DNA from: Candidatus Saccharimonadota bacterium
GTDB taxonomy: Bacteria > Patescibacteriota > Patescibacteriia > 2-12-FULL-60-25
Length of the DNA: 32,000 bases
Assembly: GCA_023898425.1 (NCBI GenBank)
Contig: CP060222.1
Span: 960,001-992,000 of the forward strand
Reading direction: 5' to 3'
The translations under genes and the position numbers were made by a program. Below, piece by piece: positions 5,353 to 27,091 of this stretch. The number at the start of each line of letters is the position of its first letter. Within the stretch, counting starts at the first letter, position 1. The notes under the pieces were generated by a model that saw only the letters and a list, made by a program, of their open reading frames with translations, was not told where the DNA came from and made no database searches.

Positions 5353-6186
5353 ATGTACATCAATCACCCAGATAAGCTTGCTCGATTCCAGGCAATTATC
5401 CGACACGGAGACTGGAGCACCGTTCATGTTTTAGCAGATTTTGACGGCACGCTCACCAAGACACAAAAAGATGGAAAAAAACTACCATCCGCCATCTCAG
5501 TTCTACGCCAAGATGGTGATTATCTTGGAGAAGCCTATGCGTTAAGCGCTCAAGCGCTTTATGACAAGTACGCTCCTTTTGAATCTGACAAAACACGAAC
5601 GCTTGTTGAACGTAAAGCAAAGATGTTTGAGTGGTGGATGGCGCACTATGCGCTATTAGTAGAAAGCGGCATGAATCTCAAGCATCTTAACCAGATTTTA
5701 GATGCTGAGCTTCTCGAATTAAAGGAGTCATGCGGTGACCTTTTTGCGCTCTTTTCGCATCATAACGTCCCGATAATTATCCTTTCTGCCTCAGGTATTG
5801 GTGAGATCATTCCTTTGTTCTTGAAGCGAAAGAATGTCTACATGGATAATATTCATGTTATCTCGAATCGTATGGAGTTTGATAAAGAGGGAAACTTTAC
5901 AAAGATTATCCCACCAGTTGTTCACTCATTAAATAAAGATGAAGTGACGGTAACTCTCATTCCAGAGGTGGATAGAGCGATAACGAAGCGTAAAAACGTT
6001 TTGTTATTGGGTGATAGTCTCGGTGATCTCGGAATGATTACTGGTTTTGAAGCCGATTCTGTTCTCACCGTTGGTTTTACTAATGAAAGTGAACCCATCT
6101 CAGAGAGGTATGGTGCAATGAAAGAAAAATACGATGTCATTATCGAAGGAGATAGTGTCGCTCCATTGCTAACGCTCCTTGTTTAA
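5353..6186 (+). CDS. HAD-superfamily pyrimidine 5'-nucleotidase-like protein (UMPH-1/cN-III type)
   Basis: HAD motif I is LADFDGTLTK. The motif ILSASGIG and the C-terminal LLLGDSLGDLGM are typical of the UMPH-1 family. Confidence 0.6.
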   Translation: MYINHPDKLARFQAIIRHGDWSTVHVLADFDGTLTKTQKDGKKLPSAISVLRQDGDYLGEAYALSAQALYDKYAPFESDKTRTLVERKAKMFEWWMAHYALLVESGMNLKHLNQILDAELLELKESCGDLFALFSHHNVPIIILSASGIGEIIPLFLKRKNVYMDNIHVISNRMEFDKEGNFTKIIPPVVHSLNKDEVTVTLIPEVDRAITKRKNVLLLGDSLGDLGMITGFEADSVLTVGFTNESEPISERYGAMKEKYDVIIEGDSVAPLLTLLV

Positions 6187-6340: not shown

Positions 6341-6369
6341 AAATCCTCTCTGAAAAGAGAGGATTTTTT
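6341..6369. terminator. hairpin terminator downstream of the M23 peptidase gene
   Basis: aaatcctctc-tgaaaa-gagaggattt with T/A runs on both sides, immediately after the minus-strand stop at 6371. Confidence 0.55.
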
Positions 6370-6370
6370 G

Positions 6371-7834
6371 TTACTTGGTGTATTTGAGTGGGTTTAAACG
6401 AATGCCGTTGAGGTATACCTCGTAGTGAAGGTGAGTACCTGTTGAGCGACCTGTTGTACCAACCATCGCGATCACCTCACCGCGCTTCACCTTTTGACCA
6501 ACCTTTACGAAGATCTTGGAGGCGTGAGCATAGCGGGTCTTAAAACCATTTGGATGCTCAATGATTATTTGCATACCGTAACCACCCGAGTTCCAGCCCG
6601 ATGTTGTCACAACACCGTCTTCGGAGGCATAAATTGGATCCGTATAGTCACCTTCGATATCAAGACCGGTATGATTCCAGCCATAGTATTGGTTGATTTG
6701 TCTTAAGCGTGTTGGCCAAAGGAGTTTGGTGGTTGGTGCATCTTCAACGATGTCTGCTGGTTTTGGACGAGAGTCATCCTTACCGGAGATCTCTTGGTAA
6801 ACGTCTACTGCTTTACCAGCAATACGTGAGATTGGAACATCTGCTTTGATGGATGTACCAGGTTGCTTAACAGCAACAGGTGTTGCAGAAGAAACCGGGG
6901 ATCCGCCTGGGATAATAAGCTCAGCGCCCACACTAAGTTGGTTGAGCTCAAGATTATTTGCTTTCGTGATCGCTTCTTCGTCCACTCCGTAAAGTTTCGC
7001 TACCTTAGAAAGCGTCTCGTTTTTCGCTACCTTGTGTAAGACACCAGACACTGGTGGGATGCGTAGCGTCATGCCCGGTTTAATAAGTGAGCGAACTGTA
7101 AGGTTGTTTGCCCAGAGAATGGTTCCGACATTTACGCCGTAGTCACGAGCAATAGAGCCGATAACATCGCCTTCTTTTACGACATAGTCTTCTGTTTTCG
7201 TGCGAGTGAGAGTAATAGCTTCGTGTCCTTCAAGTACTTCGTGCTCAGGCAAGACAGCAATCGAGCCCGGAACCGATGTGTCGGCAATTTCGCTATCACC
7301 ATAATCAAAATCAATAGCAGGCACGGCTTCAATAACACCAGCGTCGGCAAGATATTGGGTATTATTAACGGTATTGTCTGTATAGACACGTTCTTCAACG
7401 ATGGTGTCGCGACCATCCGTAACAAGGGTGTAGAGAAGGCTGCGTTGACCAGCATCTAAAGCGATAGCGCCTTTTGCTTGTAACTGACTATAAACAGAGA
7501 CCGCTGTAATTACGAGTAAAACAGCATGAAAAGCGTAACGATTGGTAAATACTGAAAAGAGAAAGCCTCTCGTTGTTACGCTGACTTTATTAATACGGAG
7601 ACGGATCGTCATGATAAGACGATAAAGCGGGCGAATCAGCCATTTACCCAAAAAACCGCCAATCTTAGCAAAAAATGGTCCTGTAGGGCGGATGATAGAT
7701 AAAAAAGCGCGGCGCACGGCATTAAGGCCACGGAGGGTGGCTAGGATGGCGCGCGTCGCGAGACGTATGAGTGGATTGGGGGTAGTAGACATACCGAGGT
7801 CTTGATACAGACGCGTTGAGATTGTTTTGAGCAA
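6371..7834 (-). CDS. LysM-domain M23 family metallopeptidase (membrane-anchored peptidoglycan hydrolase)
   Basis: N-terminal TM helix. Two LysM-like repeats (YVVKEGDVIGSIARDYGVNVGTILWANNL and HKVAKNETLSKVAKLYGVDEEAITKANNL). M23 signature HTGLDI...GYGMQIIIEHPNGFKTRYAHAS...GTTGRSTGTHLHYEV. The maximal ORF starts at TTG 7834; an alternative ATG is at 7792. Confidence 0.9.
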   Translation of the reverse strand: MLKTISTRLYQDLGMSTTPNPLIRLATRAILATLRGLNAVRRAFLSIIRPTGPFFAKIGGFLGKWLIRPLYRLIMTIRLRINKVSVTTRGFLFSVFTNRYAFHAVLLVITAVSVYSQLQAKGAIALDAGQRSLLYTLVTDGRDTIVEERVYTDNTVNNTQYLADAGVIEAVPAIDFDYGDSEIADTSVPGSIAVLPEHEVLEGHEAITLTRTKTEDYVVKEGDVIGSIARDYGVNVGTILWANNLTVRSLIKPGMTLRIPPVSGVLHKVAKNETLSKVAKLYGVDEEAITKANNLELNQLSVGAELIIPGGSPVSSATPVAVKQPGTSIKADVPISRIAGKAVDVYQEISGKDDSRPKPADIVEDAPTTKLLWPTRLRQINQYYGWNHTGLDIEGDYTDPIYASEDGVVTTSGWNSGGYGMQIIIEHPNGFKTRYAHASKIFVKVGQKVKRGEVIAMVGTTGRSTGTHLHYEVYLNGIRLNPLKYTK

Positions 7835-8170
7835 TCATCGGGCGCCTCTACTTCAGACAATCAAAGCGGTAAAAACACCAACTTTGAATTTAGGTCACAA
7901 GACGTTAGCAGATTTGGCATGCTAGGTCAATGAATATGTGTAATTTAATATTAGCATAAAAGAACGAAGAAAGACAGATGATTGAAAAAACAGATATAGA
8001 AAGAGCCCGCCGTTGAAATGATCTCAGGCGGGCTCAGGAAAGGGTTGTTAGTTTTGCTGGCCACTCCGCTTCACAGCGGTATTTTGTTGCCGTCTTGGTT
8101 CAAACAAAGTATCATAAATACTAAATAATGTCAAGAGGGTGGGTGACAATTACTCCTGCCCGACCACGTC

Positions 8171-8205
8171 CCTAATCATCCTTGTCCTTCTTTAGGAAAG
8201 AAGGA
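8171..8205 (+). repeat. hairpin repeat unit A (cctaatcatccttgtCCTTCTTTaggAAAGAAGGa)
   Basis: Contains the palindrome tccttcttt-agg-aaagaagga. It is the inverted counterpart of units B and C that flank the DUF559 gene. Confidence 0.7.
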
Positions 8206-8229
8206 ATTCTGATGGCCAGACCTCTGAAG

Positions 8230-8637
8230 TCAGTTGCCCTTCTTTCCTAAAGAAGGGGCAGGGGATGATTCGGGGTGAAGGTATGTCAGTAAATCTGCTC
8301 TCACCTTTTCAATGCAATGGAGGACTTGATCATTTGTATATCGTAGTACGGTTAATCCTAATTCGTTGAGATATCTTGTTCGGGCATTATCATAATCCGT
8401 GCTGTATTTGTGGATTTCCCCATCAATTTCAATCACAATCTTTTGCTTCGAACAATAAAAATCGGCGATGAATTGATGAATCGGCTTCTGCCTATTCCAA
8501 GTGTATTGATTAAAAGGGTGAGTTTTTAAAACAGACCTCCAAAAGACCCGTTCTGCAATCGTTTGTTCTTTTCTTAGCTCTTTAGATTTGTTGTACAAGT
8601 CTTTTCGATATTCAAATCGTGCTCCAAAGGTATTCAT
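8230..8637 (-). CDS. DUF559 domain protein (Vsr-like PD-(D/E)xK endonuclease fold), copy 1
   Basis: FIADFYCSKQKIVIEIDGEIHKYSTDYDNARTRYLNELGLTVLRYTNDQVL matches the DUF559 core seen in the other two copies (IVDFY...IEIDG..H......D..R...L...G..VLRFTN..V). Confidence 0.85.
   Translation of the reverse strand: MNTFGARFEYRKDLYNKSKELRKEQTIAERVFWRSVLKTHPFNQYTWNRQKPIHQFIADFYCSKQKIVIEIDGEIHKYSTDYDNARTRYLNELGLTVLRYTNDQVLHCIEKVRADLLTYLHPESSPAPSLGKKGN
8237..8274 (-). repeat. hairpin repeat unit B (CCCTTCTTTcctAAAGAAGGGgcaggggatgattcggg)
   Basis: 9-bp stem with a 3-nt loop. The reverse complement aligns with unit A with a few indels. It overlaps the last 11 codons of the DUF559 ORF. Confidence 0.7.
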
Positions 8638-8657
8638 ATGCTATTCAGATTCATTCA

Positions 8658-8690
8658 CCCTTCTTTCCCAAAGAAGGGCAGGGATAATTT
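8658..8690 (-). repeat. hairpin repeat unit C (CCCTTCTTTcccAAAGAAGGGcagggataattt)
   Basis: Same hairpin plus the gcaggg-at-a-tt tail as unit B, in the same orientation, located just upstream of the DUF559 start. Confidence 0.7.
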
Positions 8691-8700
8691 AGTACGAAGG

Positions 8701-12708: not shown

Positions 12709-13170
12709 ATGTCGGCCCCTTCATTCTATCGATGGTTATCGTTAGGTGCTGGGGCTTTTTTGTTTTTTCTTGTTGATTTGATAACCAAGCTATGGTTTTT
12801 TGGTTATGAAGCACCTCTTCTTGGATTATTGATTCGTTTTGAGCGTCATGAGAATCATGGTCTAAGCTTTAATATTCCTGTGCCCGGATTTATTCCGTTG
12901 TTTGTAGCTATGATAGCTATAACGACATGTGTAGTTTATTTTTATAAAAGCCATACATCGCTCAGCTTAGGTCAAAAAGTCGCGCTCGCATTGTTTATTG
13001 GTGGAACATTAGGAAATGCTTATGATCGTTTTATCTTTGGCTATGTTCGTGATTGGATAGCGATATATCGATCTATTTTTAACCTTGCAGATGTCTTTAT
13101 TTTGATTGGGTTAGGGTTGCTTTTGACAAAGTACTCGGTAGCAGCCCCTACCCCCGATAAACTTCGCTAG
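12709..13170 (+). CDS. lspA: lipoprotein signal peptidase II
   Basis: Four TM segments with NHGLSFN, GGTLGNAYDRFIFGYVRDWI and FNLADVFILIG motifs. The last approximately 10 codons are encoded by the border of the adjacent DUF559 cassette. Confidence 0.9.
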   Translation: MSAPSFYRWLSLGAGAFLFFLVDLITKLWFFGYEAPLLGLLIRFERHENHGLSFNIPVPGFIPLFVAMIAITTCVVYFYKSHTSLSLGQKVALALFIGGTLGNAYDRFIFGYVRDWIAIYRSIFNLADVFILIGLGLLLTKYSVAAPTPDKLR

Positions 13171-13677
13171 CGCTTATTTATCGACCCCTTCCCAAGCTTG
13201 GGAAGGGTTTTGTATTTGACAAAGTTTTCTAAAAATGAACGGAGTAGTTGCTATGCAAACAAGAATCTATAATCTGCCACAATATAAAGAAAGACGCAGA
13301 GAGCTAAGAAGAGAGATGACGGCTCCAGAAATTATTTTGTGGGAGAATTTAAGAGGGTCGCAAATGGGCTGTCGAATTCGACGACAACACGGTATTGGGC
13401 AATATATTGTCGATTTTACTGTGCATCCGCACGGCTCATTATTGAAATTGATGGTTCGGTACATGATTCGATCGCCAGAGTAGAGTATGATGATATTAGA
13501 GATGCTTATCTAGAGAGTTTTGGTCATAGGATTCTACGATTTACAAATCAGCAGGTCCTGAATGATCTTTCGACTGTTCTATTTCAGATAAGGGCTGCCA
13601 TCCAAAAAACCCTTCTCAAACTTGAGAAGGGGTCGCCTCGACAGAGCAAAGCGTCGTCGAGCGGGGGTAGAGCCTGC
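13143..13677 (+). mobile_element. DUF559 hairpin-IR cassette, copy 2
   Basis: Outer inverted-repeat pair is CCCCTACCCCCG (13145-13156) and CGGGGGTAG (13662-13670). Inner hairpin TIRs are cgaccccttcccaagcttgggaagggttttg (13182-13212) and its inverted partner at 13605-13635, 27/31 identical. Internal TTGACA, the GAACGGAGTAG RBS block and the DUF559 ORF are homologous to copy 3. Confidence 0.6.
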
Positions 13678-13698
13678 AAGGGGTTAGCTCTTTCTTAA
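13253..13698 (+). pseudogene. DUF559 domain protein, copy 2, interrupted by a 1-nt frameshift
   Basis: MQTRIYNLPQYKERRRELRREMTAPEIILWENLRGSQMGCRIRRQHGIGQYIVDF is in one frame. YCASARLIIEIDGSVHDS...GHRILRFTNQQVL is in the next. The switch is at the T4 run 13414-13417, where the paralogue implies T5. There is no stop before the right TIR, so the ORF reads through to 13698. Confidence 0.8.
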
Positions 13699-14301
13699 AG
13701 GTTTGCTATCTTTTTCGCTAGGTTTGTATTCAGGATCAAGTCTCTTCATTGAGAGGTTGATGCGACCTTTGTCGTCAATCTCGTAAGCAACGACGCGAAC
13801 TTTATCACCAATGTTTACGACATCGGTTGGTTTCTCGACACGTGTTAGCTTCATTTCTGATACGTGAACAAGGCCGTCTACTTTAGGAGCGATATTTACA
13901 AAGGCACCAAAGTCCATCATGCGAACAACGGTTCCTTCGAAGATTTCACCAACTTCGATTTCGCGTGTCATTGATTTGATAAAGTTTACAGCGCCCGCCA
14001 TGTTTTCGGCATTATTTGATGTGACGGATACGGTGCCATCGTCAGCGATATCAATTTCTACATTGTAGGTCGCGATAATCTCGTTGATCATTTTGCCACC
14101 TGGACCAATGACTTCGCGGATTTTGTCAGGGTTGATCTTAAAGCTCTCGATACGAGGAGCAAAAGGAGAGAGCTCTGAACGTACTTCTGGGATCGTCTCA
14201 AGCATGGACTTTAAGATATGGAGACGAGCATCGCGGGCACGAGCAATGGTTTCTTCGACAACATGCCAAGGAATGCCATGAGTTTTTGTGTCCATTTGCA
14301 C
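13684..14301 (-). CDS. pnp: polyribonucleotide nucleotidyltransferase (PNPase), C-terminal fragment (end of second PH domain, KH and S1 domains)
   Basis: QMDTKTHGIPWHVVEETIARARDARLHIL, KH motif IREVIGPGGKMINEI, and S1 motif GEIFEGTVVRMMDFGAFVNI...GLVHVSE. Confidence 0.9.
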   Translation of the reverse strand: MQMDTKTHGIPWHVVEETIARARDARLHILKSMLETIPEVRSELSPFAPRIESFKINPDKIREVIGPGGKMINEIIATYNVEIDIADDGTVSVTSNNAENMAGAVNFIKSMTREIEVGEIFEGTVVRMMDFGAFVNIAPKVDGLVHVSEMKLTRVEKPTDVVNIGDKVRVVAYEIDDKGRINLSMKRLDPEYKPSEKDSKPLRKS

Positions 14302-15863
14302 GGCGGTAATGCCATTTTTGTTCCTGCGATTTTAAAGTCCATACCACCGGTTCCATCTTCGAGATCCTGAAGATCAGTAATCACTTGAAATCGGCCAGTT
14401 GCTTCGTCTGAGGCAACACCCATCGCGATACCAGCGACAGGCTCTTTGATCGGTACGCCTGCATCCATCAGAGCGAGGGTTGATCCACAGGTAGCTCCCA
14501 TAGAGCTTGAGCCATTTGAGCCTAGCACTTCTGATACAACGCGAATTGTGTAAGGAAACTCGTCTTTACTAGGTAATACGTCTAGGAGTGCACGTTCTGC
14601 GAGAGCACCGTGACCAATTTCGCGACGTCCTGGTCCACGATTAGATTTTGCTTCACCAACCGAGTAACCCGGAAAGTTGTAGTGATGAAAGTAGCGCTTG
14701 GTTGTTTGGAATTCCATCGTATCAAGCGTTTGTTCCATGCCTGGAGAGCCAAGCGTGACCGCGGTAAGCACTTGCGTTGAACCACGTTCAAATAAACCAG
14801 AGCCATGAGTACGTGGGATAAGCCCAACCATAGAACCGAGTGAACGAACTTCATGAAGCTCACGACCATCAGCACGACGCTTCTCGTCTAAAATAAGTTT
14901 GGTGACTTCTGAGTCTACAAAACCATCGAGAACGCTTTCTGCTTTTTTAAGATCATCTTTGCCAATGCCGATAGCTGCAAGGTTTTCTGCCAAGGCTTTT
15001 TTCAAGCGGCCAACAGCTGCTTTACGGTCTGCTTTTGATTTAAGCGGTTCTGCAAACAAGACACCTCGCTGCGTAGATAAGAACGCGAGAGCTTTGTCGG
15101 CGATTTCTTTGCGTTTCGCCTTTTTCTCTGCATCTTCGGCGTCTTTTGGTGCTGTTGGATCAAGTTTTGTTTTACCTACGGCTTCACGTACTTGATGAAT
15201 GAGATCGATAACAGGGGAGAGATGGGCATGAGCGAGCTTCATTGCTTCGAGCATGTCAGCGTCACTTAGTTGTGCAGCGCCCGCCTCGACCATAAGCGTT
15301 TTTTCTGCGGTACCTGCAACAACAAGATCAAGATCACCAACAAGCGTCTCTTCGTAAGTAGGCATGACGATAAATTTGCCATCACGGCGACCAATACGAA
15401 TAGCGGCAATTGGGCCAGCCCATGGAATATCTGAGATGGCGAGCGCACAAGAAGCGCCGATCAATCCAGGAATATCAGCGTCATTTACTTGATCATGTGA
15501 GAATACGGTGGCAATGACGGCAACTTCGTTGCGTAATGTGTCCGAAAAGAGGGGGCGAATGGCACGATCGATAAGACGTCCTGAGAGAATAGCTTCATCC
15601 GTAGGGCGGCCTTCGCGTTTAATAAAGCGAGAGCCTTTGATACGACCGGCGGCATACATACGCTCTTCAAAATCCACCATAAGTGGAAAGTATTCAGCGT
15701 CTTCTTTGGCGTTTCCAAGAGTAGCGGTAGCAAGGATTACGGTGTCACCGTAACGAACGGTACAAGAACCGTTTGCTTGTTGAGCGAGCTGACCGACGGA
15801 GATCGTCAAATCACGCCCAGCCCAATTGATAGAAAAGGATTTGGAGGGGTTTAATGAGGGCAT
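14211..15863 (-). CDS. pnp: PNPase, N-terminal fragment (two RNase PH-like domains), frameshifted at its 3' end
   Basis: RPLFSDTLRNEV, FPGYSVGE and GGMDFKIAGT are present. After AGTK the frame becomes nonsense. Restoring one A in the A5 run (T5 at 14315-14319 on the + strand) gives AGTKNGITAVQMDTK. Confidence 0.9.
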   Translation of the reverse strand: MPSLNPSKSFSINWAGRDLTISVGQLAQQANGSCTVRYGDTVILATATLGNAKEDAEYFPLMVDFEERMYAAGRIKGSRFIKREGRPTDEAILSGRLIDRAIRPLFSDTLRNEVAVIATVFSHDQVNDADIPGLIGASCALAISDIPWAGPIAAIRIGRRDGKFIVMPTYEETLVGDLDLVVAGTAEKTLMVEAGAAQLSDADMLEAMKLAHAHLSPVIDLIHQVREAVGKTKLDPTAPKDAEDAEKKAKRKEIADKALAFLSTQRGVLFAEPLKSKADRKAAVGRLKKALAENLAAIGIGKDDLKKAESVLDGFVDSEVTKLILDEKRRADGRELHEVRSLGSMVGLIPRTHGSGLFERGSTQVLTAVTLGSPGMEQTLDTMEFQTTKRYFHHYNFPGYSVGEAKSNRGPGRREIGHGALAERALLDVLPSKDEFPYTIRVVSEVLGSNGSSSMGATCGSTLALMDAGVPIKEPVAGIAMGVASDEATGRFQVITDLQDLEDGTGGMDFKIAGTKMALPPCKWTQKLMAFLGMLSKKPLLVPAMLVSIS

Positions 15864-23068: not shown

Positions 23069-23329
23069 TTAAACCTTGAGCTTAGCCATGAGTTCGTCGT
23101 AGCCAGCACTGTCTTCGCGCTTCAAGTATTTCATGAGGCGGCGACGTTCAGAAACCATTTTGATGAGACCACGGCGGGAGGAAAAATCTTTTTTGTGAGT
23201 CTTAAGATGGCCTGTAAGTTCTTTGACTTCTTCAGTGAGAATAGCGATCTGAACCTGTGGCGAACCGGTATCGGTTGCATGGGTTTTGAATTTTTCAATG
23301 ACCTTCTTCTTGTGATCTGCTGATAACAT
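23069..23329 (-). CDS. rpsO: 30S ribosomal protein S15
   Basis: MLSADHKKKVIEKFKTHATDTGSPQVQIAILTEEVKELTGHLKTHKKDFSSRRGLIKMVSERRRLMKYLKREDSAGYDELMAKL. The start is taken at the second Met (23329) by length comparison with S15; the maximal ORF extends to 23350. Confidence 0.9.
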   Translation of the reverse strand: MLSADHKKKVIEKFKTHATDTGSPQVQIAILTEEVKELTGHLKTHKKDFSSRRGLIKMVSERRRLMKYLKREDSAGYDELMAKLKV

Positions 23330-23550
23330 AGTCCCGTCGAAGCTCGTCACCTAGCCAGGATCCGTGAGAATCCATGGATATGTGGGAGATTCGGATGCGC
23401 GCGTCTAACAGATTTCTCCGGTAGAGCGTAATGAGTAAGTGGCCACAGGCTAACGCAAATCAATAAAATAAGCAAGTAGAGGACTGCCTTCGCTCCTACG
23501 AGCCCCCTACCCCCGGTAAACATATCTATTGGACATTTGGTATATGTTTG

Positions 23551-23581
23551 CCGACCCCTTCCCACCTTTGTGGAAGGGGTT
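23551..23581 (+). repeat. left 31-bp terminal inverted repeat (self-complementary hairpin)
   Basis: ccgaccccttcccacctttgtggaaggggtt is identical (31/31) to the reverse complement of 23986-24016. It folds as CCCCTTCC(C)AC-cttt-GTGGAAGGGG. Confidence 0.9.
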
Positions 23582-23627
23582 TTTGGTTATTGACAACAAC
23601 TACAAAAAAAGTGAACGGAGTAGGTAT

Positions 23628-23987
23628 ATGACTTTTACACGTATTTATAACAGCCCTGAATATAAGGACCGTAGGAGAGAGCTTAGAGCTACCATGACCG
23701 CTGCTGAACGCATGGTTTGGGAGCGTATTCGAGGATCTCAACTTGGTTGCCGCTTTCGACGTCAACATAGTATCGGTGATTATATCGTTGATTTTTATAG
23801 CCCCACTGCATGCTTGGTCATTGAAATTGATGGCTCTATTCATGAAAGCGAGCAACAGCAGAATCACGACACACTTAGAACCCTTTACCTTAAAAGCGTT
23901 GGGCATCATGTTCTAAGATTTACCAATAAAGAAGTCCAAGAGAACGTTGATCGCATTATTTCAGTTATCCGTAATTTCTGCCCATAA
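23628..23987 (+). CDS. DUF559 domain protein (Vsr-like endonuclease fold), copy 3
   Basis: MTFTRIYNSPEYKDRRRELRATMTAAERMVWERIRGSQLGCRFRRQHSIGDYIVDFYSPTACLVIEIDGSIHESEQQQNHDTLRTLYLKSVGHHVLRFTNKEV. GGAG RBS 8 nt upstream. The stop codon overlaps the first 2 nt of the right TIR. Confidence 0.9.
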   Translation: MTFTRIYNSPEYKDRRRELRATMTAAERMVWERIRGSQLGCRFRRQHSIGDYIVDFYSPTACLVIEIDGSIHESEQQQNHDTLRTLYLKSVGHHVLRFTNKEVQENVDRIISVIRNFCP

Positions 23988-24016
23988 CCCCTTCCACAAA
24001 GGTGGGAAGGGGTCGG
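23986..24016 (-). repeat. right 31-bp terminal inverted repeat
   Basis: aaccccttccacaaaggtgggaaggggtcgg is the exact reverse complement of 23551-23581. Confidence 0.9.
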
Positions 24017-24118
24017 TTGATAAAAATCTAATGTTTAATCTATTTAGCAACCGGGGGTAGGGGGTTTTAGGGGGCGAGTTGTATCATTATCCTTCCTATA
24101 TTAAGGTAGGCGATATCT

Positions 24119-27091
24119 ATGCCGAATCCACGCCCTATTCATGAGATGGAGTCTAAATGGCAGGCCAAATGGGCTGCTGAAAAGACCTATAAAGCCGAGA
24201 CTGGCGCCAAGAACGAGAAGTTTTTTGGTCTTGTTGAGTTTCCGTTTCCTTCAGGTGAGGGCTTGCACGTTGGTCATACCCGTTCGTATTTTGCGCTTGA
24301 TGCCTATACCCGACGTCAACGCATGTTGGGCAAGAATGTGATGTTTCCGATGGGCTGGGATGCTTTTGGTTTGCCGACTGAGAATTTTGCGATCAAACAC
24401 AAAGTCCGACCCCAAGACGCGACAAATAAAAATGTTGCGAACTTTAAGCGTCAGATGCAGTCCATGGGTTTTGGTTTTGATTGGGATCGTGAAATCAATA
24501 CAACAGATCCAAAATACTATAAATGGACGCAATGGCAATTCAAGCAATTTTTTGAAAGCTTTTATGATCGCGAACAAAAGCGTGCGCGACCAATCGATCA
24601 ATTGCCAGAGTACCTCGTTTCGATTGGCAAAGATCCTATGCAAGAAAAGGTGGATGACTATCGCATGGCCTTTAAGGGATCATCAACAATTAACTGGTGC
24701 GACAAATGTAAAATTGGTTTAGCAAACGAAGAGGCGGTTGGTGGAGTTTGTGAACGTTGTGGTTCGCCGGTTGTCGAAAAAGAAAAATCCCAATGGATGA
24801 TTCGCATCACCGAATATGCCGACCGTCTTTTAGAAGATTTAGATAAAGTAGATTATCTTGATCGTGTAAAATCACAACAACGTAATTGGATCGGAAAGAG
24901 CGAAGGTGCTCGTATCAAATTTAGAACAAATACGGATGATGTGATTACGGTGTTCACGACGCGTCCTGATACGATTTTTGGCGTGACTTATGTGACGCTT
25001 GCTCCTGAACACGAATTGGTTTCATCGTGGTTGAAGGGCGGATTCATTAAGAATTCTGATGAAGCAAAGGCCTATATTTCTGCAGCATCCGCGAAGACTG
25101 AAGAAGAGCGTCAAGCTGAACAACAAACGAAGTCAGGTGTAAAACTCGAAGGTATTACCGTGACGAATCCCGTGAATAGCGAAGTCGTGCCGGTCTTTAT
25201 TTCTGATTATGTTTTAGCTGGTTATGGAACGGGTGCCGTGATGGCGGTACCAGCGCACGATGATCGTGATTTTGCTTTTGCAAAAGCGTTTGACTTGCCA
25301 ATCAAGCAAGTTGTTGCTGAACATCATATCGATGTAAAAAATCCTCCTGTAGAAGGCAAGCCAACCGTTGCAAGAAAAACGGTGCAAGCTCTCATTCGCG
25401 ATCCAAAAAATGGAAAGATTCTTTGCTTAAATTGGAAGAAGCATCCATGGACGACCTTTGTTATTGGTGGTGTCGAAGGAGATGAGGATCCTGTTGATGC
25501 TATCTTACGCGAAATCAAAGAAGAGACGGGTTATACAAATCTCTCTCTCGTGCGACAGCTCGGGCCTTCGCTTGTTGCTGAATATTTTGCTGCGCATAAA
25601 AACGAAAACAGATACGCTGATGTTACCGGCTATTTATTTGAGTTAATCAGTGACGAGCATGAAATTATTTCTGCTGAAGAGCAAGAAAAGCATGAACTCG
25701 TTTGGCTCGATCGTTCTGAGATTACTCCTGAACGAATGACTTGTTCTGAATTGGGAGCTTGGATGTGGAATTTGGATCACCCAGAAGGTCGTGCTTTTAC
25801 TGATAATGGTATTGCGGTGAACTCAGACTTTATCAACGGATTACCAACCTGGAAGGCAAAGATGGATATGACAAGTTGGCTTACTGAATATGGAAAGGGC
25901 GAGTACGCAGCAACGTTTAGATTGCGTGATTGGGTATTTTCTCGTCAGCGTTATTGGGGAGAGCCGATGCCAATTGTTCATTGTGATCAATGTGGCTTTG
26001 TTGCAGTGCCTGATGATCAGTTGCCCGTTGTGCTTCCGGAGGTTGAAGCCTATGAACCAGGCGAAGATGGCTCGTCGCCGCTCGCAAAGATTGATGAATG
26101 GGTAAATACCAGCTGTCCCTCTTGTGGCGGCAAAGCCAAACGCGAAACGGATGTGATGCCAAACTGGGCTGGTTCGAGTTGGTACTTTTTACGTTATTGC
26201 GATCCGCACAATGATGAAGCGTTTGCTTCTCAAGAAGCGATGAACTATTGGATGCCAGTCAATCTTTATAATGGCGGCATGGAGCATACAACGCTTCACC
26301 TTCTCTACTCACGATTCTGGCATAAGTTTTTGTGGGATCTTGGACATATTCCAAAAGAGGTTGGTCCTGAGCCATACGCAAAACGTCGTTCGCATGGACT
26401 TGTGATGGCCGAAGGTGGAGAAAAAATGTCAAAATCAAAAGGTAATGTTGTAAATCCAGATGATGTGATTGCTGCTCATGGTGCGGACGTCTTCAAGGTC
26501 TATGAATTGTTCATGGGGCCTTTTGATCAAGCCGTCCCTTGGGATACGAATGGTATCGAAGGCGTAAAACGATTCTTGGATAAAATTTGGCAACTCTTTG
26601 ATCGTGAGAATGAAGTACCAGAAGCATCAGCAGCTCTTGAGACGCTTTATCATCAAACCGTTAAAAAAGTTGGTGAAGGCATTGATGAATTGCAGTTTAA
26701 TACCTGTGTCTCATCGCTCATGATTTTGGTAAATGCCTTTCAAGATCATGGCGGTATCCCAGCTTCGATGAAAAAAGGTTTTGTTGGAATAGTTGCTCCA
26801 TTTATCCCACATCTTTCCGAAGAGCTTTGGATGAAGCTAGGCGAAAAGGGGAGCGTGCATTTAAGCGCATGGCCTAAGTACAATGAATCAAAGCTAGTTG
26901 CAGATACATTCGAGCTCGTTGTGCAGGTTAATGGAAAAGTTCGCGCGAAGTTGCAAGCCTCTACTTCTATCACAGAAGAAGAAGCAAAAGCACTCGCTCT
27001 AAATGCCGAAGGAATTGCGACATGGCTTGATGGTAAAGAACCTAAAAAGGTAATTTATATTAAGGGTAAACTCGTAAGTATCGTGATGTAA
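24119..27091 (+). CDS. leuS: leucine--tRNA ligase with an inserted Nudix hydrolase domain
   Basis: HIGH motif (GLHVGH), KMSKS motif (GEKMSKSKGN), CP1 editing-domain motifs (TTRPDTIFGVTYV, AVPAHDDRDFAFA) and RLRDWVFSRQRYWGEP. At 990 aa it is longer than usual because of a ~155-aa insert carrying a perfect Nudix box. Confidence 0.95.
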   Translation: MPNPRPIHEMESKWQAKWAAEKTYKAETGAKNEKFFGLVEFPFPSGEGLHVGHTRSYFALDAYTRRQRMLGKNVMFPMGWDAFGLPTENFAIKHKVRPQDATNKNVANFKRQMQSMGFGFDWDREINTTDPKYYKWTQWQFKQFFESFYDREQKRARPIDQLPEYLVSIGKDPMQEKVDDYRMAFKGSSTINWCDKCKIGLANEEAVGGVCERCGSPVVEKEKSQWMIRITEYADRLLEDLDKVDYLDRVKSQQRNWIGKSEGARIKFRTNTDDVITVFTTRPDTIFGVTYVTLAPEHELVSSWLKGGFIKNSDEAKAYISAASAKTEEERQAEQQTKSGVKLEGITVTNPVNSEVVPVFISDYVLAGYGTGAVMAVPAHDDRDFAFAKAFDLPIKQVVAEHHIDVKNPPVEGKPTVARKTVQALIRDPKNGKILCLNWKKHPWTTFVIGGVEGDEDPVDAILREIKEETGYTNLSLVRQLGPSLVAEYFAAHKNENRYADVTGYLFELISDEHEIISAEEQEKHELVWLDRSEITPERMTCSELGAWMWNLDHPEGRAFTDNGIAVNSDFINGLPTWKAKMDMTSWLTEYGKGEYAATFRLRDWVFSRQRYWGEPMPIVHCDQCGFVAVPDDQLPVVLPEVEAYEPGEDGSSPLAKIDEWVNTSCPSCGGKAKRETDVMPNWAGSSWYFLRYCDPHNDEAFASQEAMNYWMPVNLYNGGMEHTTLHLLYSRFWHKFLWDLGHIPKEVGPEPYAKRRSHGLVMAEGGEKMSKSKGNVVNPDDVIAAHGADVFKVYELFMGPFDQAVPWDTNGIEGVKRFLDKIWQLFDRENEVPEASAALETLYHQTVKKVGEGIDELQFNTCVSSLMILVNAFQDHGGIPASMKKGFVGIVAPFIPHLSEELWMKLGEKGSVHLSAWPKYNESKLVADTFELVVQVNGKVRAKLQASTSITEEEAKALALNAEGIATWLDGKEPKKVIYIKGKLVSIVM

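What the first reader, a model, noticed from the sequence alone, without database searches (positions are those of the whole stretch)
23503..24064. Intact DUF559 endonuclease-like gene inside nested perfect inverted repeats: a miniature mobile cassette?
The 119-aa DUF559 ORF (23628-23987) is bracketed by 31-bp terminal inverted repeats that are 31/31 identical (23551-23581 and 23986-24016). Identity ends abruptly on both sides. Each TIR is itself a strong hairpin (CCCCTTCC..GGAAGGGG).

Exactly 34 nt further out on each side lies a second, perfect 14-bp inverted pair: CCCCCTACCCCCGG (23503-23516) and CCGGGGGTAGGGGG (24051-24064).

Inside, the element carries its own TTGACA box and RBS block (GAACGGAGTAG), shared with copy 2 at 13.2 kb. 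The stop codon abuts the right TIR.

The element sits between rpsO and leuS. The architecture recalls RAYT transposases flanked by REP hairpins, or IS/MITE ends. However, the encoded protein is a Vsr-like PD-(D/E)xK domain protein of unknown function, not a known transposase. I am not aware of DUF559 genes being described as TIR-bounded units.
Basis: seen in the sequence. Interest (0 to 1): 0.7.

Follow-up and report, generated by a model that had tools for sequence, protein, structure and literature searches.

The report
Nuclease gene cassette between triplex-motif repeats
A small DUF559 nuclease gene sits between two mirror-image copies of a structured G/C-rich repeat, and this roughly 600-bp unit is present or absent between near-identical strains; that makes DUF559 a candidate partner protein for the unexplained BoxC/PIT "triplex" repeats of bacteria, including E. 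coli.

Summary
In detail: the 31/31 and 14/14 inverted repeats exist and form part of 97-nt arms.

It is not a one-off. The window holds three DUF559 genes, and each is bracketed this way.

A near-identical strain has an empty rpsO-leuS site. Flanks are 100% identical, and 608 nt replace 24 nt with no target-site duplication. The lspA/pnp copy also has empty, intact and decayed alleles. A related MAG carries the same unit at another locus, plus at least five ORF-less arm doublets.

In 66-76 diverse metagenomic DUF559 loci:
- flanking inverted repeats exceed controls in about 78% of loci;
- the arm motif is 29-fold enriched in the flanks.

Each arm consists of a pyrimidine/purine hairpin plus a mirror G-block. 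This is the architecture of BoxC/PIT/TM intrastrand-triplex repeats, for which no mobility gene was known. E. coli ycjD (DUF559) lies next to TM_ECO #9.

The protein is Vsr-like and closest to a homing endonuclease. It is under strong purifying selection.

Best reading: a selfish nuclease-plus-repeat cassette, analogous to RAYT/REPIN or a homing endonuclease gene. The mobilisation chemistry is inferred, not shown.

The "own promoter" claim is not supported.

The parts
23481..24088 (.). Segment present in the window but absent from the empty allele of a near-identical strain. These 608 nt replace 24 nt (GGCTCGGGGCAATAGAGAGAGCTA).
   Evidence: blastn of L136 (empty) against L133 (the window, reverse-complemented): flanks 100% identical over 1912 nt and 741 nt. 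Occupied-specific stretch is L133 742-1349, and window coordinate = 24830 - L133 position.
23490..23586 (+). Left arm. It is 97 nt long and 74% complementary to the right arm.
   Evidence: the repeat finder I1. As ssDNA it folds into two adjacent hairpins, z = -5.4.
23503..23516 (-). Left outer block CCCCCTACCCCCGG. On the G-rich (-) strand, GGGTAGG is the mirror ("third strand") block of the inner hairpin's GGAAGGG.
   Evidence: Exact 14/14 inverted pair. The triplex-motif finder hits 23506-23578 on the - strand.
23514..23553 (.). Left middle hairpin: CGGTAAACATAT, a 16-nt loop containing TATTGG, then ATATGTTTGCCG.
   Evidence: (I7). Stems covary among 17 arms, permutation p < 5e-5, and the loop TATTGG is conserved.
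23551..23581 (.). Left inner pyrimidine/purine hairpin CCCCTTCC-CACCTTTGT-GGAAGGGG, followed by TTTTT.
23582..23627 (+). Conserved leader containing TTGACA (23590-23595) and the GAACGGAG ribosome-binding block (GGAG at 23617-23620).
   Evidence: Conserved in copy 2 and in L039/L010/L018. 85% identical to L039, against 52% at third codon positions. No sigma-70 promoter called.
23628..23987 (+). Intact DUF559 gene (119 aa), a Vsr-like PD-(D/E)xK-fold nuclease.
   Evidence: Pfam PF04480, E = 4.5e-32. Invariant D55, E66, D68, H72. AF2 pLDDT 86.7. Foldseek hits 3HRL, then I-Bth0305I. pN 0.064 versus pS 0.73 against L039.
23981..24077 (+). Right arm: inner hairpin 23986-24016, middle hairpin 24014-24053, outer G-block 24051-24064 and outermost block to about 24077.
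   Evidence: Triplex-motif finder hits 23989-24061 on the + strand: Y block CCCTTCC, R block GGAAGGG, third block GGGTAGG.
13108..13701 (+). Copy 2 of the element, between lspA and pnp. Arms are 13141-13211 and 13606-13677. The DUF559 gene (from ATG 13253) carries a 1-nt frameshift near 13415 and has lost its stop codon. The left arm encodes the last residues of LspA.
   Evidence: The empty allele L143/L144 has a bidirectional terminator there instead (81 nt). L148 has an intact gene. The L018 ortholog has a nonsense codon.
8148..8696 (-). Copy 3: a divergent DUF559 gene (8230-8637, - strand, 135 aa) between arms of a second sequence family. The hairpin is CCCTTCTTT..AAAGAAGGG with a GGCAGGGGAT block. 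Arms lie at 8167-8204, 8235-8270 and 8658-8696.
   Evidence: Occupied in all 10 strains sampled. At the same site the related MAG has an ORF-less doublet of the first family (L036).

Best explanation
The region is one copy of a small selfish cassette: a DUF559 (Vsr-like) nuclease gene placed between two inverted copies of a composite structured repeat.

Each arm has three parts:
- a pyrimidine-run/purine-run hairpin (CCCCTTCC..GGAAGGGG);
- a variable middle hairpin whose stem covaries;
- an outer G-block (GGGG-TA-GG) that mirrors the hairpin's purine run.

This Y-block / R-block / mirror-R-block layout is the layout of BoxC/PIT/TM "intrastrand triplex" repeats.

Shown here:
- the unit comes and goes as a block between near-identical strains;
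- it occupies different loci in relatives;
- it decays independently in separate lineages;
- it coexists with ORF-less arm doublets;
- the gene-plus-arms arrangement is general for this DUF559 clade.

Inferred:
- the nuclease recognises the folded arms (hairpin, cruciform or triplex in single-stranded or supercoiled DNA) and nicks or cuts there;
- host recombination or repair then copies the arms, with or without the gene, into other intergenic pyrimidine/purine hairpin sites such as terminators;
- in this view DUF559 is to these repeats what RAYT is to REP/REPIN.

The absence of target-site duplication, together with replacement of host bases, points to a break-and-repair route rather than DDE-type transposition.

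Same architecture at all three DUF559 genes in the window:
- Only one other Y/R hairpin occurs in the whole 32 kb.

Presence/absence polymorphism:
- L136 is an empty rpsO-leuS site with 100% identical flanks; 608 nt stand in place of 24 nt.
- L143 and L144 are empty at lspA/pnp, L148 is intact, the window copy is frameshifted, and L018 has a nonsense codon.
- A gene 87-90% identical, with the same arms, sits at an rpoB-side locus in relatives.

ORF-less doublets:
- L025, L029, L030, L036 and L040 carry ORF-less doublets, and L041 carries a solo arm, all in one MAG.
- The ORF-less copy folds as a closed multi-branch structure, z = -9.6.

Generality across the clade:
- In 76 metagenomic loci the median flank-IR score is 37 against 18 in controls.
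- About 78% of loci exceed the control 95th percentile, p = 6e-23 and p = 2e-18 with two different controls.
- Triplex-type motifs occur at 5.96/kb in flanks against 0.21/kb elsewhere.
- 59 of 66 loci have at least one such motif.

Constraint on the arms:
- Middle-hairpin stems covary, p < 5e-5.
- Copy 2's right arm shows a triple covariation: CCCTTCT/AGAAGGG/GGGTAGA.
- The non-coding arm is 85% conserved while third codon positions are 52% conserved.

Protein:
- It matches Pfam DUF559 and keeps the conserved D..ExD..H residues.
- The nearest solved folds are 3HRL and the homing endonuclease I-Bth0305I.
- pN is 0.064 against pS 0.73.

E. coli:
- ycjD (DUF559) lies 167 nt from TM_ECO #9.
- A TM-like hairpin overlaps the ycjD stop codon.
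- A decayed second DUF559 3' remnant lies in between.
- ycjD is present in 62% of complete genomes.
Against: - No biochemical or genetic evidence exists that DUF559 cuts these structures or moves anything.
- Both empty/occupied pairs show replacement of host sequence (24 nt and 81 nt) rather than a clean insertion. Ordinary recombination, or several successive events, could have produced these alleles.
- In E. coli, ycjD is single-copy and fixed at one locus. TM copies persist in ycjD-less strains.
- In family 1, loop 2 of the "triplex" motif is 32-43 nt, far beyond the 1-6 nt used to define such motifs. Triplex formation is not shown.
- ORF-less copies were seen in only one genome, because only 8-kb pieces of it were available.
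- The arm next to a given gene type can differ: the right arm of copy 1 differs from that of L039. Gene and arms therefore do not always travel together.
Confidence: 0.55

Rival explanations
1. Homing-endonuclease reading. The structured doublets are a pre-existing dispersed repeat. DUF559 is a free-standing homing endonuclease gene that cuts the centre of an ORF-less doublet. It is then copied in by double-strand-break repair, with the roughly 100-nt arms serving as homology. ORF-less doublets are therefore its empty target sites, not its derivatives.
For: - The nearest characterised fold is the Vsr-like homing endonuclease I-Bth0305I. Free-standing Vsr-like homing endonuclease genes are known (PMC2677866, PMC3239194).
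- The gene sits exactly between the two inner hairpins, where ORF-less copies have a roughly 40-nt linker with its own small palindrome.
- ORF-less and ORF-bearing copies share identical right arms.
- The same gene type is found with different arm subtypes.
- The invasion, decay and loss pattern is seen at lspA/pnp.
- There are no target-site duplications.
Against: - At rpsO-leuS and lspA/pnp the empty alleles contain no doublet. Arms and gene arrived (or left) together at sites with no arm homology.
- No allele with arms only was seen at either site among 22 and 12 contigs.
- This reading leaves the spread of the doublets themselves unexplained.
Confidence: 0.25
2. Passive reading. DUF559 is an ordinary accessory gene, for example a repair or restriction-related nuclease. 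The hairpins are bidirectional terminators or insulators, or generic intergenic repeats that accumulate in the same gaps. The polymorphism reflects ordinary indels and homologous exchange between strains, not element-encoded mobility.
For: - The inner hairpins are followed by T-runs pointing inward in many copies.
- The empty lspA/pnp allele has a classic bidirectional terminator at the same place.
- Alleles differ by replacement rather than clean insertion.
- E. coli ycjD is single-copy at a fixed locus.
Against: - The two arms of one gene match each other (31/31, 14/14) far better than expected for independent terminators.
- Arms are absent from other genes' flanks in the same contigs (control median 18 versus 37). 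They are 29-fold enriched next to DUF559.
- The same arms and gene occur at unrelated loci.
- The terminator scan calls nothing here.
- PIT/BoxC elements were reported to lack terminator or promoter activity in E. coli, as summarised in PMC4666352.
- The third block and middle hairpin are unnecessary for termination, yet they covary.
Confidence: 0.12
3. RNA reading. The arms act at the RNA level. 5' and 3' UTR pairing or hairpins stabilise or regulate the DUF559 mRNA, and the ORF-less copies are small structured RNAs.
For: - Long-range complementarity exists between the arms, and folds are strong.
- Covarying stems are present.
- The leader is conserved.
Against: - Rfam finds nothing in this region.
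- No promoter is found upstream of the left arm on the + strand. rpsO is divergent, so the left arm would not be in the mRNA if transcription starts at the leader.
- The mirror G-block relation fits a purine-motif DNA triplex, which does not form in RNA (PMC4666352).
- This reading does not explain presence/absence or multi-locus spread.
Confidence: 0.05

Closest known systems
BoxC / PIT / TM_ECO intrastrand-triplex repeats (E. coli, Synechocystis, H. influenzae; Holder et al. 2015, PMC4666352)
   Same: - Three-block layout: pyrimidine block, complementary purine block, mirror purine block.
- G/C-rich and intergenic.
- Multi-copy.
- Often found as inverted doublets made of two subtypes (A+B).
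- Their loci are hyper-rearranged between strains.
- E. coli TM_ECO #9 lies beside the DUF559 gene ycjD.
   Different: - The sequence is not homologous to the E. coli consensus.
- In family 1, the second loop is 32-43 nt and holds an extra covarying hairpin, instead of 3 nt.
- The published work found no associated protein or mobility gene, whereas here a DUF559 gene sits inside the doublet.
REP/REPIN elements and their RAYT (TnpA_REP) transposases
   Same: - A gene flanked by inverted structured repeats.
- ORF-less inverted doublets dispersed in intergenic regions.
- No target-site duplication.
- Hairpin recognition is likely.
- A GTAG core is present within GGGGGTAGGGGG.
- Behaviour in E. 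coli is single-copy and vertical.
   Different: - The enzyme has a Vsr-like PD-(D/E)xK fold and is not an HUH/Y1 transposase.
- In these CPR-like genomes the gene itself is multi-copy, moves between loci and decays. RAYTs usually do not.
Vsr-like (EDxHD) homing endonucleases: I-Bth0305I and the "fractured gene" HEGs
   Same: - The catalytic-domain fold matches (TM-score 0.62-0.74).
- The gene is small and selfish.
- It shows presence/absence between close strains.
- It has a decay cycle.
   Different: - It is not in an intron or intein, and not between split genes.
- It is bracketed by long structured inverted repeats.
- Occupied and empty alleles differ by replacement of 24-81 nt, not by a precise insertion.
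MITEs and IS elements with terminal inverted repeats (e.g. Correia/NEMIS, IS-derived MITEs)
   Same: - Inverted ends.
- Short ORF-less derivatives.
- Intergenic location.
   Different: - No target-site duplication.
- No DDE, serine, tyrosine or HUH transposase.
- ORF-less copies carry their own conserved central palindrome rather than a random internal deletion.
Vsr very-short-patch-repair endonuclease
   Same: - Same superfamily and fold.
- Some sources name these proteins "very-short-patch-repair endonuclease".
   Different: - No adjacent cytosine methyltransferase.
- The Pfam family is DUF559, not Vsr.
- The context is a repeat-bounded cassette.

Membership tests
DUF559 (PF04480), Vsr-like PD-(D/E)xK-fold nucleases | Match to the Pfam model above its gathering score | tested here: met
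   110.6 bits against a cutoff of 20.6, covering 104 of 109 profile positions. Copy 2 scores 61 bits for its C-terminal frame.
DUF559 (PF04480), Vsr-like PD-(D/E)xK-fold nucleases | Vsr-like alpha/beta fold with conserved acidic and His residues | tested here: met
   D55, E66, D68 and H72 are invariant in 13 sequences. AF2 pLDDT is 86.7. Best PDB matches are 3HRL (E = 2e-6) and 3R3P; 3HRL is also found by sequence at E = 2e-29.
BoxC / PIT / TM intrastrand-triplex motif | Three consecutive blocks: pyrimidine block, Watson-Crick purine block, mirror purine block (G.G:C, A/T.A:T) | tested here: met
   A purpose-written finder hits all six arms of the three window copies. It reports CCCTTCC/GGAAGGG/GGGTAGG, and the covarying CCCTTCT/AGAAGGG/GGGTAGA in copy 2. 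The motif is 29-fold enriched beside 66 metagenomic DUF559 genes.
BoxC / PIT / TM intrastrand-triplex motif | Short loops (1-6 nt in the ITxF definition) | tested here: not met
   Loop 1 is 8-9 nt. Loop 2 is 32-43 nt in copies 1 and 2, where it holds the middle hairpin. Copy 3 has a loop 2 of 2-4 nt. Definition taken.
BoxC / PIT / TM intrastrand-triplex motif | Multi-copy, intergenic, with inverted doublets of two subtypes | tested here: met
   At least 8 loci in MAG JAMIEW01. Doublets pair a long-hairpin arm with a short-hairpin arm. Compare the E. coli A+B doublets.
BoxC / PIT / TM intrastrand-triplex motif | Actual triplex formation by the isolated strand | not testable with these tools
   Needs CD, NMR or footprinting as in PMC4666352. 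The ViennaRNA folds model only Watson-Crick pairs.
MITE / IS with terminal inverted repeats | Target-site duplication flanking the ends | tested here: not met
   Two empty/occupied comparisons show no duplication. Instead, 24 nt and 81 nt of host sequence are replaced.
MITE / IS with terminal inverted repeats | Autonomous partner encodes a known transposase family | tested here: not met
   The only ORF is DUF559, with sub-threshold MTES_1575 and DUF2726 matches. No transposase family is hit.
REP/REPIN-RAYT system | HUH/Y1 (IS200/IS605 TnpA-like) protein | tested here: not met
   Pfam and fold searches give a Vsr-like nuclease, not HUH.
REP/REPIN-RAYT system | Gene flanked by inverted copies of the repeat that is dispersed as ORF-less doublets | tested here: met
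   This is a working analogy only, not membership.
Free-standing homing endonuclease gene | Presence/absence at the same site in close relatives, with decay of resident copies | tested here: met
   L136 versus the window. L143, L148, the window and L018 at lspA/pnp.
Free-standing homing endonuclease gene | Precise insertion into a recognisable target sequence that the enzyme cleaves | tested here: inconclusive
   The alleles differ by replacement, not clean insertion. Cleavage cannot be tested here.
Intrinsic terminator | G+C-rich stem-loop followed by a U-run | tested here: inconclusive
   By eye, an 8-11 bp stem followed by TTTTT sits after the left hairpin. The scanner calls none in 23300-24200, and the right hairpin lacks a T-run in copy 1.

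The most novel reading that the evidence does not exclude
DUF559 proteins are the missing enzymatic partner of BoxC/PIT/TM intrastrand-triplex repeats across bacteria, from CPR-like lineages to E. coli. Together they would form a previously unrecognised class of mobile DNA. Its ends are triplex- and hairpin-forming motifs. Its enzyme is a Vsr-like PD-(D/E)xK-fold nuclease that acts on folded DNA, with insertion into pyrimidine/purine hairpins such as terminators and no target-site duplication. This would also explain why TM loci are rearrangement hot spots.
Probability: 0.35. Interest if true: 0.9.

Novelty: new variant of a known kind. Interest (0 to 1): 0.8.

Why it matters
DUF559 is one of the large, widespread "unknown function" families. 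BoxC/PIT/TM repeats have been known since 1992 with no origin, no partner protein and no accepted function. The most thorough study stated that no transposase or integrase remnants were ever found near them (PMC4666352).

A systematic physical link between the two would do for these repeats what the discovery of RAYTs did for REPs. The link seen here consists of the gene sitting inside inverted doublets, ORF-less doublets elsewhere, presence/absence between near-identical strains, and ycjD lying beside TM_ECO #9 in E. coli.

It also makes the question testable in a model organism, by deleting or over-expressing ycjD and by YcjD biochemistry on TM DNA.

Finally, it flags a source of small-scale genome plasticity in the reduced genomes of CPR-like bacteria, and a nuclease that may read non-B DNA structure.

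Tried and rejected
- **Rfam** at permissive E-value over 12.9-24.3 kb found nothing in any element.
- **The sigma-70 promoter and terminator scan** gave no support for the TTGACA box as a promoter and called no terminator.
- **The genome-collection pattern scan** returned 29 stretches. The 21 from GC-rich genomes (Streptomyces, Planctomycetes and others) fail the full-arm pattern and are treated as chance.
- **A search for target-site duplications** at two empty/occupied pairs found none.
- **Simple insertion or simple deletion** at rpsO-leuS was rejected, because the empty allele's 24 nt are absent from the occupied allele.
- **An assembly collapse** producing the empty allele was rejected for the same reason, and because a second contig shows the same allele.
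- **The RpsO-homolog route** first gave only distant empty-like sites (L042-L046) and rearranged contexts (L052, L138). These are useful but not clean.
- **The count of structure pairs** was not used. MAFFT mis-registers the variable-length middle hairpins, so an anchored pairing and permutation test was run instead.
- **The integron cassette/attC reading** was rejected because the arms are inverted, the neighbours are housekeeping genes and there is no integrase.
- **A G-quadruplex reading** of the G-blocks was considered, but the mirror-block (triplex) relation explains the covariation better.
- **Viral contigs:** distant Vsr-like relatives (24-45% identity) mostly lack the arms. The association is therefore specific to this clade and not a by-product of the method.
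- **Literature searches** for DUF559, ycjD, BoxC, intrastrand triplex, RAYT/REP and MITE in CPR found no paper linking DUF559 to these repeats. The library is incomplete, so this is not proof of novelty.
Full report
**1.

The 31-mer CCGACCCCTTCCCACCTTTGTGGAAGGGGTT occurs at 23551-23581 (+) and 23986-24016 (-) without mismatch. It occurs nowhere else in the window, even allowing 3 mismatches, and shuffles give none.

The 14-mer CCCCCTACCCCCGG occurs at 23503-23516 (+) and 24051-24064 (-). A 2-mismatch copy lies at 13144, next to the second DUF559 gene. Both outer repeats lie 34 nt outside the inner ones.

The ORF 23628-23987 encodes 119 aa and matches Pfam DUF559 at E = 4.5e-32. Its stop codon overlaps the right repeat.

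The two perfect repeats are the conserved cores of 97-nt arms, 23490-23586 and 23981-24077, which are 74% complementary. As single-stranded DNA, each arm folds into two adjacent hairpins, with z = -5.4 and -3.8.

The window is contig JAGQLA010000008.1 of MAG GCA_020429715.1. Best hits of its proteins come from Patescibacteria/CPR lineages.

**2. It is a family, not a single case**

Copy 2 (about 13108-13701, between lspA and pnp) has the same order of parts:
- outer block;
- middle hairpin;
- inner hairpin;
- conserved leader with TTGACA and GAACGGAGTAG;
- DUF559 gene;
- inner hairpin, middle hairpin and outer block on the other side.

Its gene carries a 1-nt frameshift and has lost its stop codon.

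A tblastn of window proteins against fetched loci revealed a third, divergent DUF559 gene at 8230-8637 on the - strand. It lies between arms of a different sequence family built the same way: the hairpin CCCTTCTTT..AAAGAAGGG next to a GGCAGGGGAT block. The 38-nt inverted repeat is 82% complementary.

Across the whole 32 kb, pyrimidine/purine hairpins of this type occur only at these three genes and at one other place, 6344-6383.

**3. Evidence that the unit comes and goes**

- **Different locus in relatives.** Proteins 87-90% identical to copy 1 (P0001, P0002, P0006) are encoded downstream of rpoB and hypothetical genes, with the same arms.
- **Empty rpsO-leuS site.**
  - Looking up the exact RpsO protein returned L136, in which leuS and rpsO are 204 nt apart with no DUF559 gene.
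  - Its flanks are 100% identical to the window over 1912 nt and 741 nt, apart from one 1-nt indel.
  - The window's 608 nt (about 23481-24088) stand in place of 24 nt, GGCTCGGGGCAATAGAGAGAGCTA.
- **Several states at lspA/pnp**:

| Locus | State at lspA/pnp |
|---|---|
| L143, L144 (95-96% identical strains) | Empty. A classic bidirectional terminator, AAAAAAAATCCCCCTAAGGGGATTTTTTT, sits there; the window's 594 nt replace 81 nt. |
| L148 (99.5% identical) | Occupied, with an intact 124-aa gene |
| Window | Occupied, gene frameshifted |
| L018 (orthologous copy in MAG JAMIEW01) | Occupied, with a nonsense codon (MKTRIYS*) |

- **No target-site duplication** is seen at either site.
- **Copy 3's site** is occupied in all 10 strains sampled.

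**4. ORF-less copies exist**

A pattern scan of one genome per species with CCCTACCCCCGN{20,45}CGACCCCTTC returned 29 stretches. Eight of them come from a single MAG (JAMIEW01), and only these carry complete arms.

In that MAG:
- Two loci carry a DUF559 gene (L018 and L039).
- Five are complete doublets of 180-290 bp without a gene (L025, L029, L030, L036, L040).
- One is a solo arm (L041).

The doublets pair a long-middle-hairpin arm with a short-middle-hairpin arm. They have a short linker containing its own small palindrome.

The L040 copy folds as ssDNA into a closed multi-branch structure of -65 kcal/mol, z = -9.6.

L036 lies at the site occupied in the window by copy 3. Its outermost blocks (ATCCATCCCCTGCCCCT..GGGCAGGGAGGAT) match the outer part of copy-3-type arms. 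The first-family doublet therefore appears to sit in the centre of a second-family palindrome.

Together with the terminator at the empty lspA/pnp site, this suggests that these units land in pyrimidine/purine hairpins. That is an inference.

**5. The arrangement is general for this DUF559 clade**

A profile scan of metagenome contigs gave 80 DUF559 loci, 39-53% identical to copy 1 in all but one case. Upstream flanks were aligned against reverse-complemented downstream flanks.

Flank inverted-repeat scores:
- Median score was 37, against 18 for shifted windows.
- 78% of the 76 loci exceeded the control 95th percentile, p = 6e-23.
- The same result held when the flanks of other genes in the same contigs served as controls, p = 2e-18.

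The arms differ in sequence but share one design: a C/T-run hairpin such as CCCCTCC..GGAGGGG or CCCCCTTT..AAAGGGGG, an adjacent G-block, and sometimes a middle hairpin.

More distant Vsr-like relatives in viral contigs (24-45% identity) mostly lack these features. This serves as a specificity control.

**6. What the arms are**

E. coli K-12 ycjD, a DUF559 gene, shows the same picture. The repeat beside it is listed as TM_ECO #9 (1,351,204-1,351,239) in Holder et al. 2015 (PMC4666352). That paper treats BoxC/PIT elements as "intrastrand triplex motifs" with the form CCCTCGCCCC-loop-GGGGAGAGGG-TTA-GGGTGAGGGG. The motif is a pyrimidine block, its purine complement, and a mirror purine block.

The paper reports:
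- 23 copies in MG1655;
- five inverted A+B doublets;
- hyper-rearranged loci;
- explicitly, no transposase or integrase remnants nearby.

A purpose-written finder for this three-block rule hits all six arms of the window's three copies. In copy 1 the blocks are CCCTTCC / GGAAGGG / GGGTAGG.

Copy 2's right arm shows a triple covariation, CCCTTCT / AGAAGGG / GGGTAGA.

Beside 66 metagenomic DUF559 genes, such motifs occur at 5.96/kb against 0.21/kb elsewhere. That is 29-fold, with 59 of 66 loci having at least one and 44 of 66 having one on both sides.

Middle-hairpin stems covary across 17 arms: self-pairing exceeds non-self pairing, permutation p < 5e-5. The loop TATTGG is conserved.

Whether a triplex actually forms across a 32-43-nt loop is untested.

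**7. E. coli details**

- TM_ECO #9 lies 167 nt from the ycjD stop codon.
- A TM-like hairpin (CCCTCGCTCTTTCAGGGAGAGGG) overlaps that stop codon.
- Between them is a decayed remnant of a second DUF559 3' end, ENMETVLENIRQGLNRPS, compared with YcjD's NEETVLENILQELNRRS.
- The chance of one of 23 TMs lying within 300 nt of a given gene is about 0.005.
- ycjD is present in 3378 of 5426 complete genomes. It is single-copy, always lies between fabI and sapF, and alternates with the eefRABCD operon (PMC12817139).

This is one locus, so it is supportive rather than conclusive.

**8. The protein**

- The invariant residues D55, E66, D68 and H72 are kept in copies 1 and 3.
- The AF2 model has pLDDT 86.7.
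- It matches 3HRL (a DUF559 protein of N. gonorrhoeae), then the catalytic domain of the homing endonuclease I-Bth0305I, then PvuRts1I/AbaSI.
- Against the L039 homolog, pN is 0.064 and pS is 0.73, indicating strong purifying selection.
- The non-coding left arm and leader are 85% identical, while third codon positions are 52% identical. The arms are therefore constrained too.

**9. Mechanism**

Shown: a block of arms plus gene is gained or lost between near-identical genomes without target-site duplication. It occupies several loci, decays, and coexists with ORF-less doublets.

Inferred, in order of preference:
- **(A) Nuclease-repeat partnership, confidence 0.55.** DUF559 cuts the folded arms, and repair copies them into other hairpin-like intergenic sites. 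This is analogous to RAYT/REPIN.
- **(B) Homing into doublets, confidence 0.25.** DUF559 is a homing endonuclease that invades the centre of pre-existing doublets.
- **(C) Passive accessory gene with terminator or insulator repeats, confidence 0.12.**
- **(D) RNA-level structure, confidence 0.05.**

Three points weigh on B. The empty alleles lack doublets, which argues against pure B. The mixing of arm subtypes with one gene type argues for some B-like exchange. The replacement of 24 nt and 81 nt of host DNA remains unexplained by any simple model.

**10. Novelty and limits**

DUF559 and BoxC/PIT/TM repeats are each known. I found no paper in the searchable library linking them, but the library is incomplete.

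The unit fails the defining tests for DDE-type MITE/IS elements (no TSD, no known transposase) and for RAYT (no HUH protein). It shares working logic with both, and with homing endonuclease genes.

Main limits:
- there is no experiment;
- ORF-less copies were documented in only one genome;
- only fragments of genomes were available;
- triplex formation is unproven.

Noticed in passing
window 8148-8696: A third DUF559 gene (8230-8637, - strand, 135 aa; 35-38% identical to the copy-1 group). It lies between arms of a second sequence family, with an extra arm copy abutting its stop codon and a 19/19 complementary mini-doublet at 8186-8204 / 8238-8256.
   Followed up: yes
window 13684-15863: The pnp gene (PNPase) appears split into two overlapping ORFs, 13684-14301 and 14211-15863, whereas related strains have one 726-aa gene (L143). 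Together with the frameshift in DUF559 copy 2 a few hundred bases away, this may point to sequencing or assembly errors in this part of the MAG rather than real pseudogenes.
   Followed up: no
window 24119-27091: The leucyl-tRNA synthetase (990 aa) carries a NUDIX domain inserted between its catalytic-domain halves, according to precomputed Pfam hits. This is an unusual architecture. A relative's LeuS in L048 is 851 aa with no NUDIX hit listed.
   Followed up: no
window 6344-6383: The only other pyrimidine/purine hairpin in the window, TCCTCTC..GAGAGGA, with a weak mirror block. It lies between the convergent ORFs 5353-6186 and 6371-7834. It may be a plain terminator or a solitary decayed arm.
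   Followed up: no
L052, L138, L141, L142 (upstream of rpsO): Strains with the same or nearly the same RpsO have a different same-strand gene upstream of rpsO, ending in hairpins such as GCCCTCC..GGAGGGC or ATCCCTCC..GGAGGGAT. In L051 versus L052, homology starts exactly at the element boundary. The rpsO upstream region is a rearrangement hot spot.
   Followed up: partly
P0007, P0013, P0040, P0051 and E. coli YcjD (L162 2408-2420): Many annotated DUF559 proteins end in odd tails (..SPLRRGRR, ..PSLTKEGVGGG, ..PPPYQGGG, YcjD ..RSPSP). These tails are translations of the downstream hairpin and G-block. ORF calls therefore routinely run into the repeat.
   Followed up: partly
L162 (E. coli K-12 NC_000913.3 1351164-1351815): The roughly 650-bp ycjD segment comprises TM_ECO #9, a decayed DUF559 remnant, ycjD and a perfect 17-bp hairpin. 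It is the part of the fabI-sapF interval missing from strains that carry eefRABCD there instead. A recent paper notes the alternation but not the repeats.
   Followed up: partly
PMC9881135, table of predicted programmed-inversion targets: "DUF559 domain-containing protein" is listed as 14-fold enriched, and "endonuclease domain-containing protein" as 9.6-fold enriched, among genes with nearby inverted repeats predicted to be invertible. This is probably an independent, unrecognised trace of the same arm architecture.
   Followed up: no
type-A middle hairpins (e.g. window 23514-23553; L025, L029, L036, L040): Stem position 5 is a conserved mismatch (C.T or T.C) in 11 of 12 long middle hairpins; copy 1's left arm is fully paired there and has a T:G wobble elsewhere in the stem. 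Conserved unpaired bases are typical of protein-recognised DNA hairpins. A Vsr relative might be expected to read mismatches.
   Followed up: no
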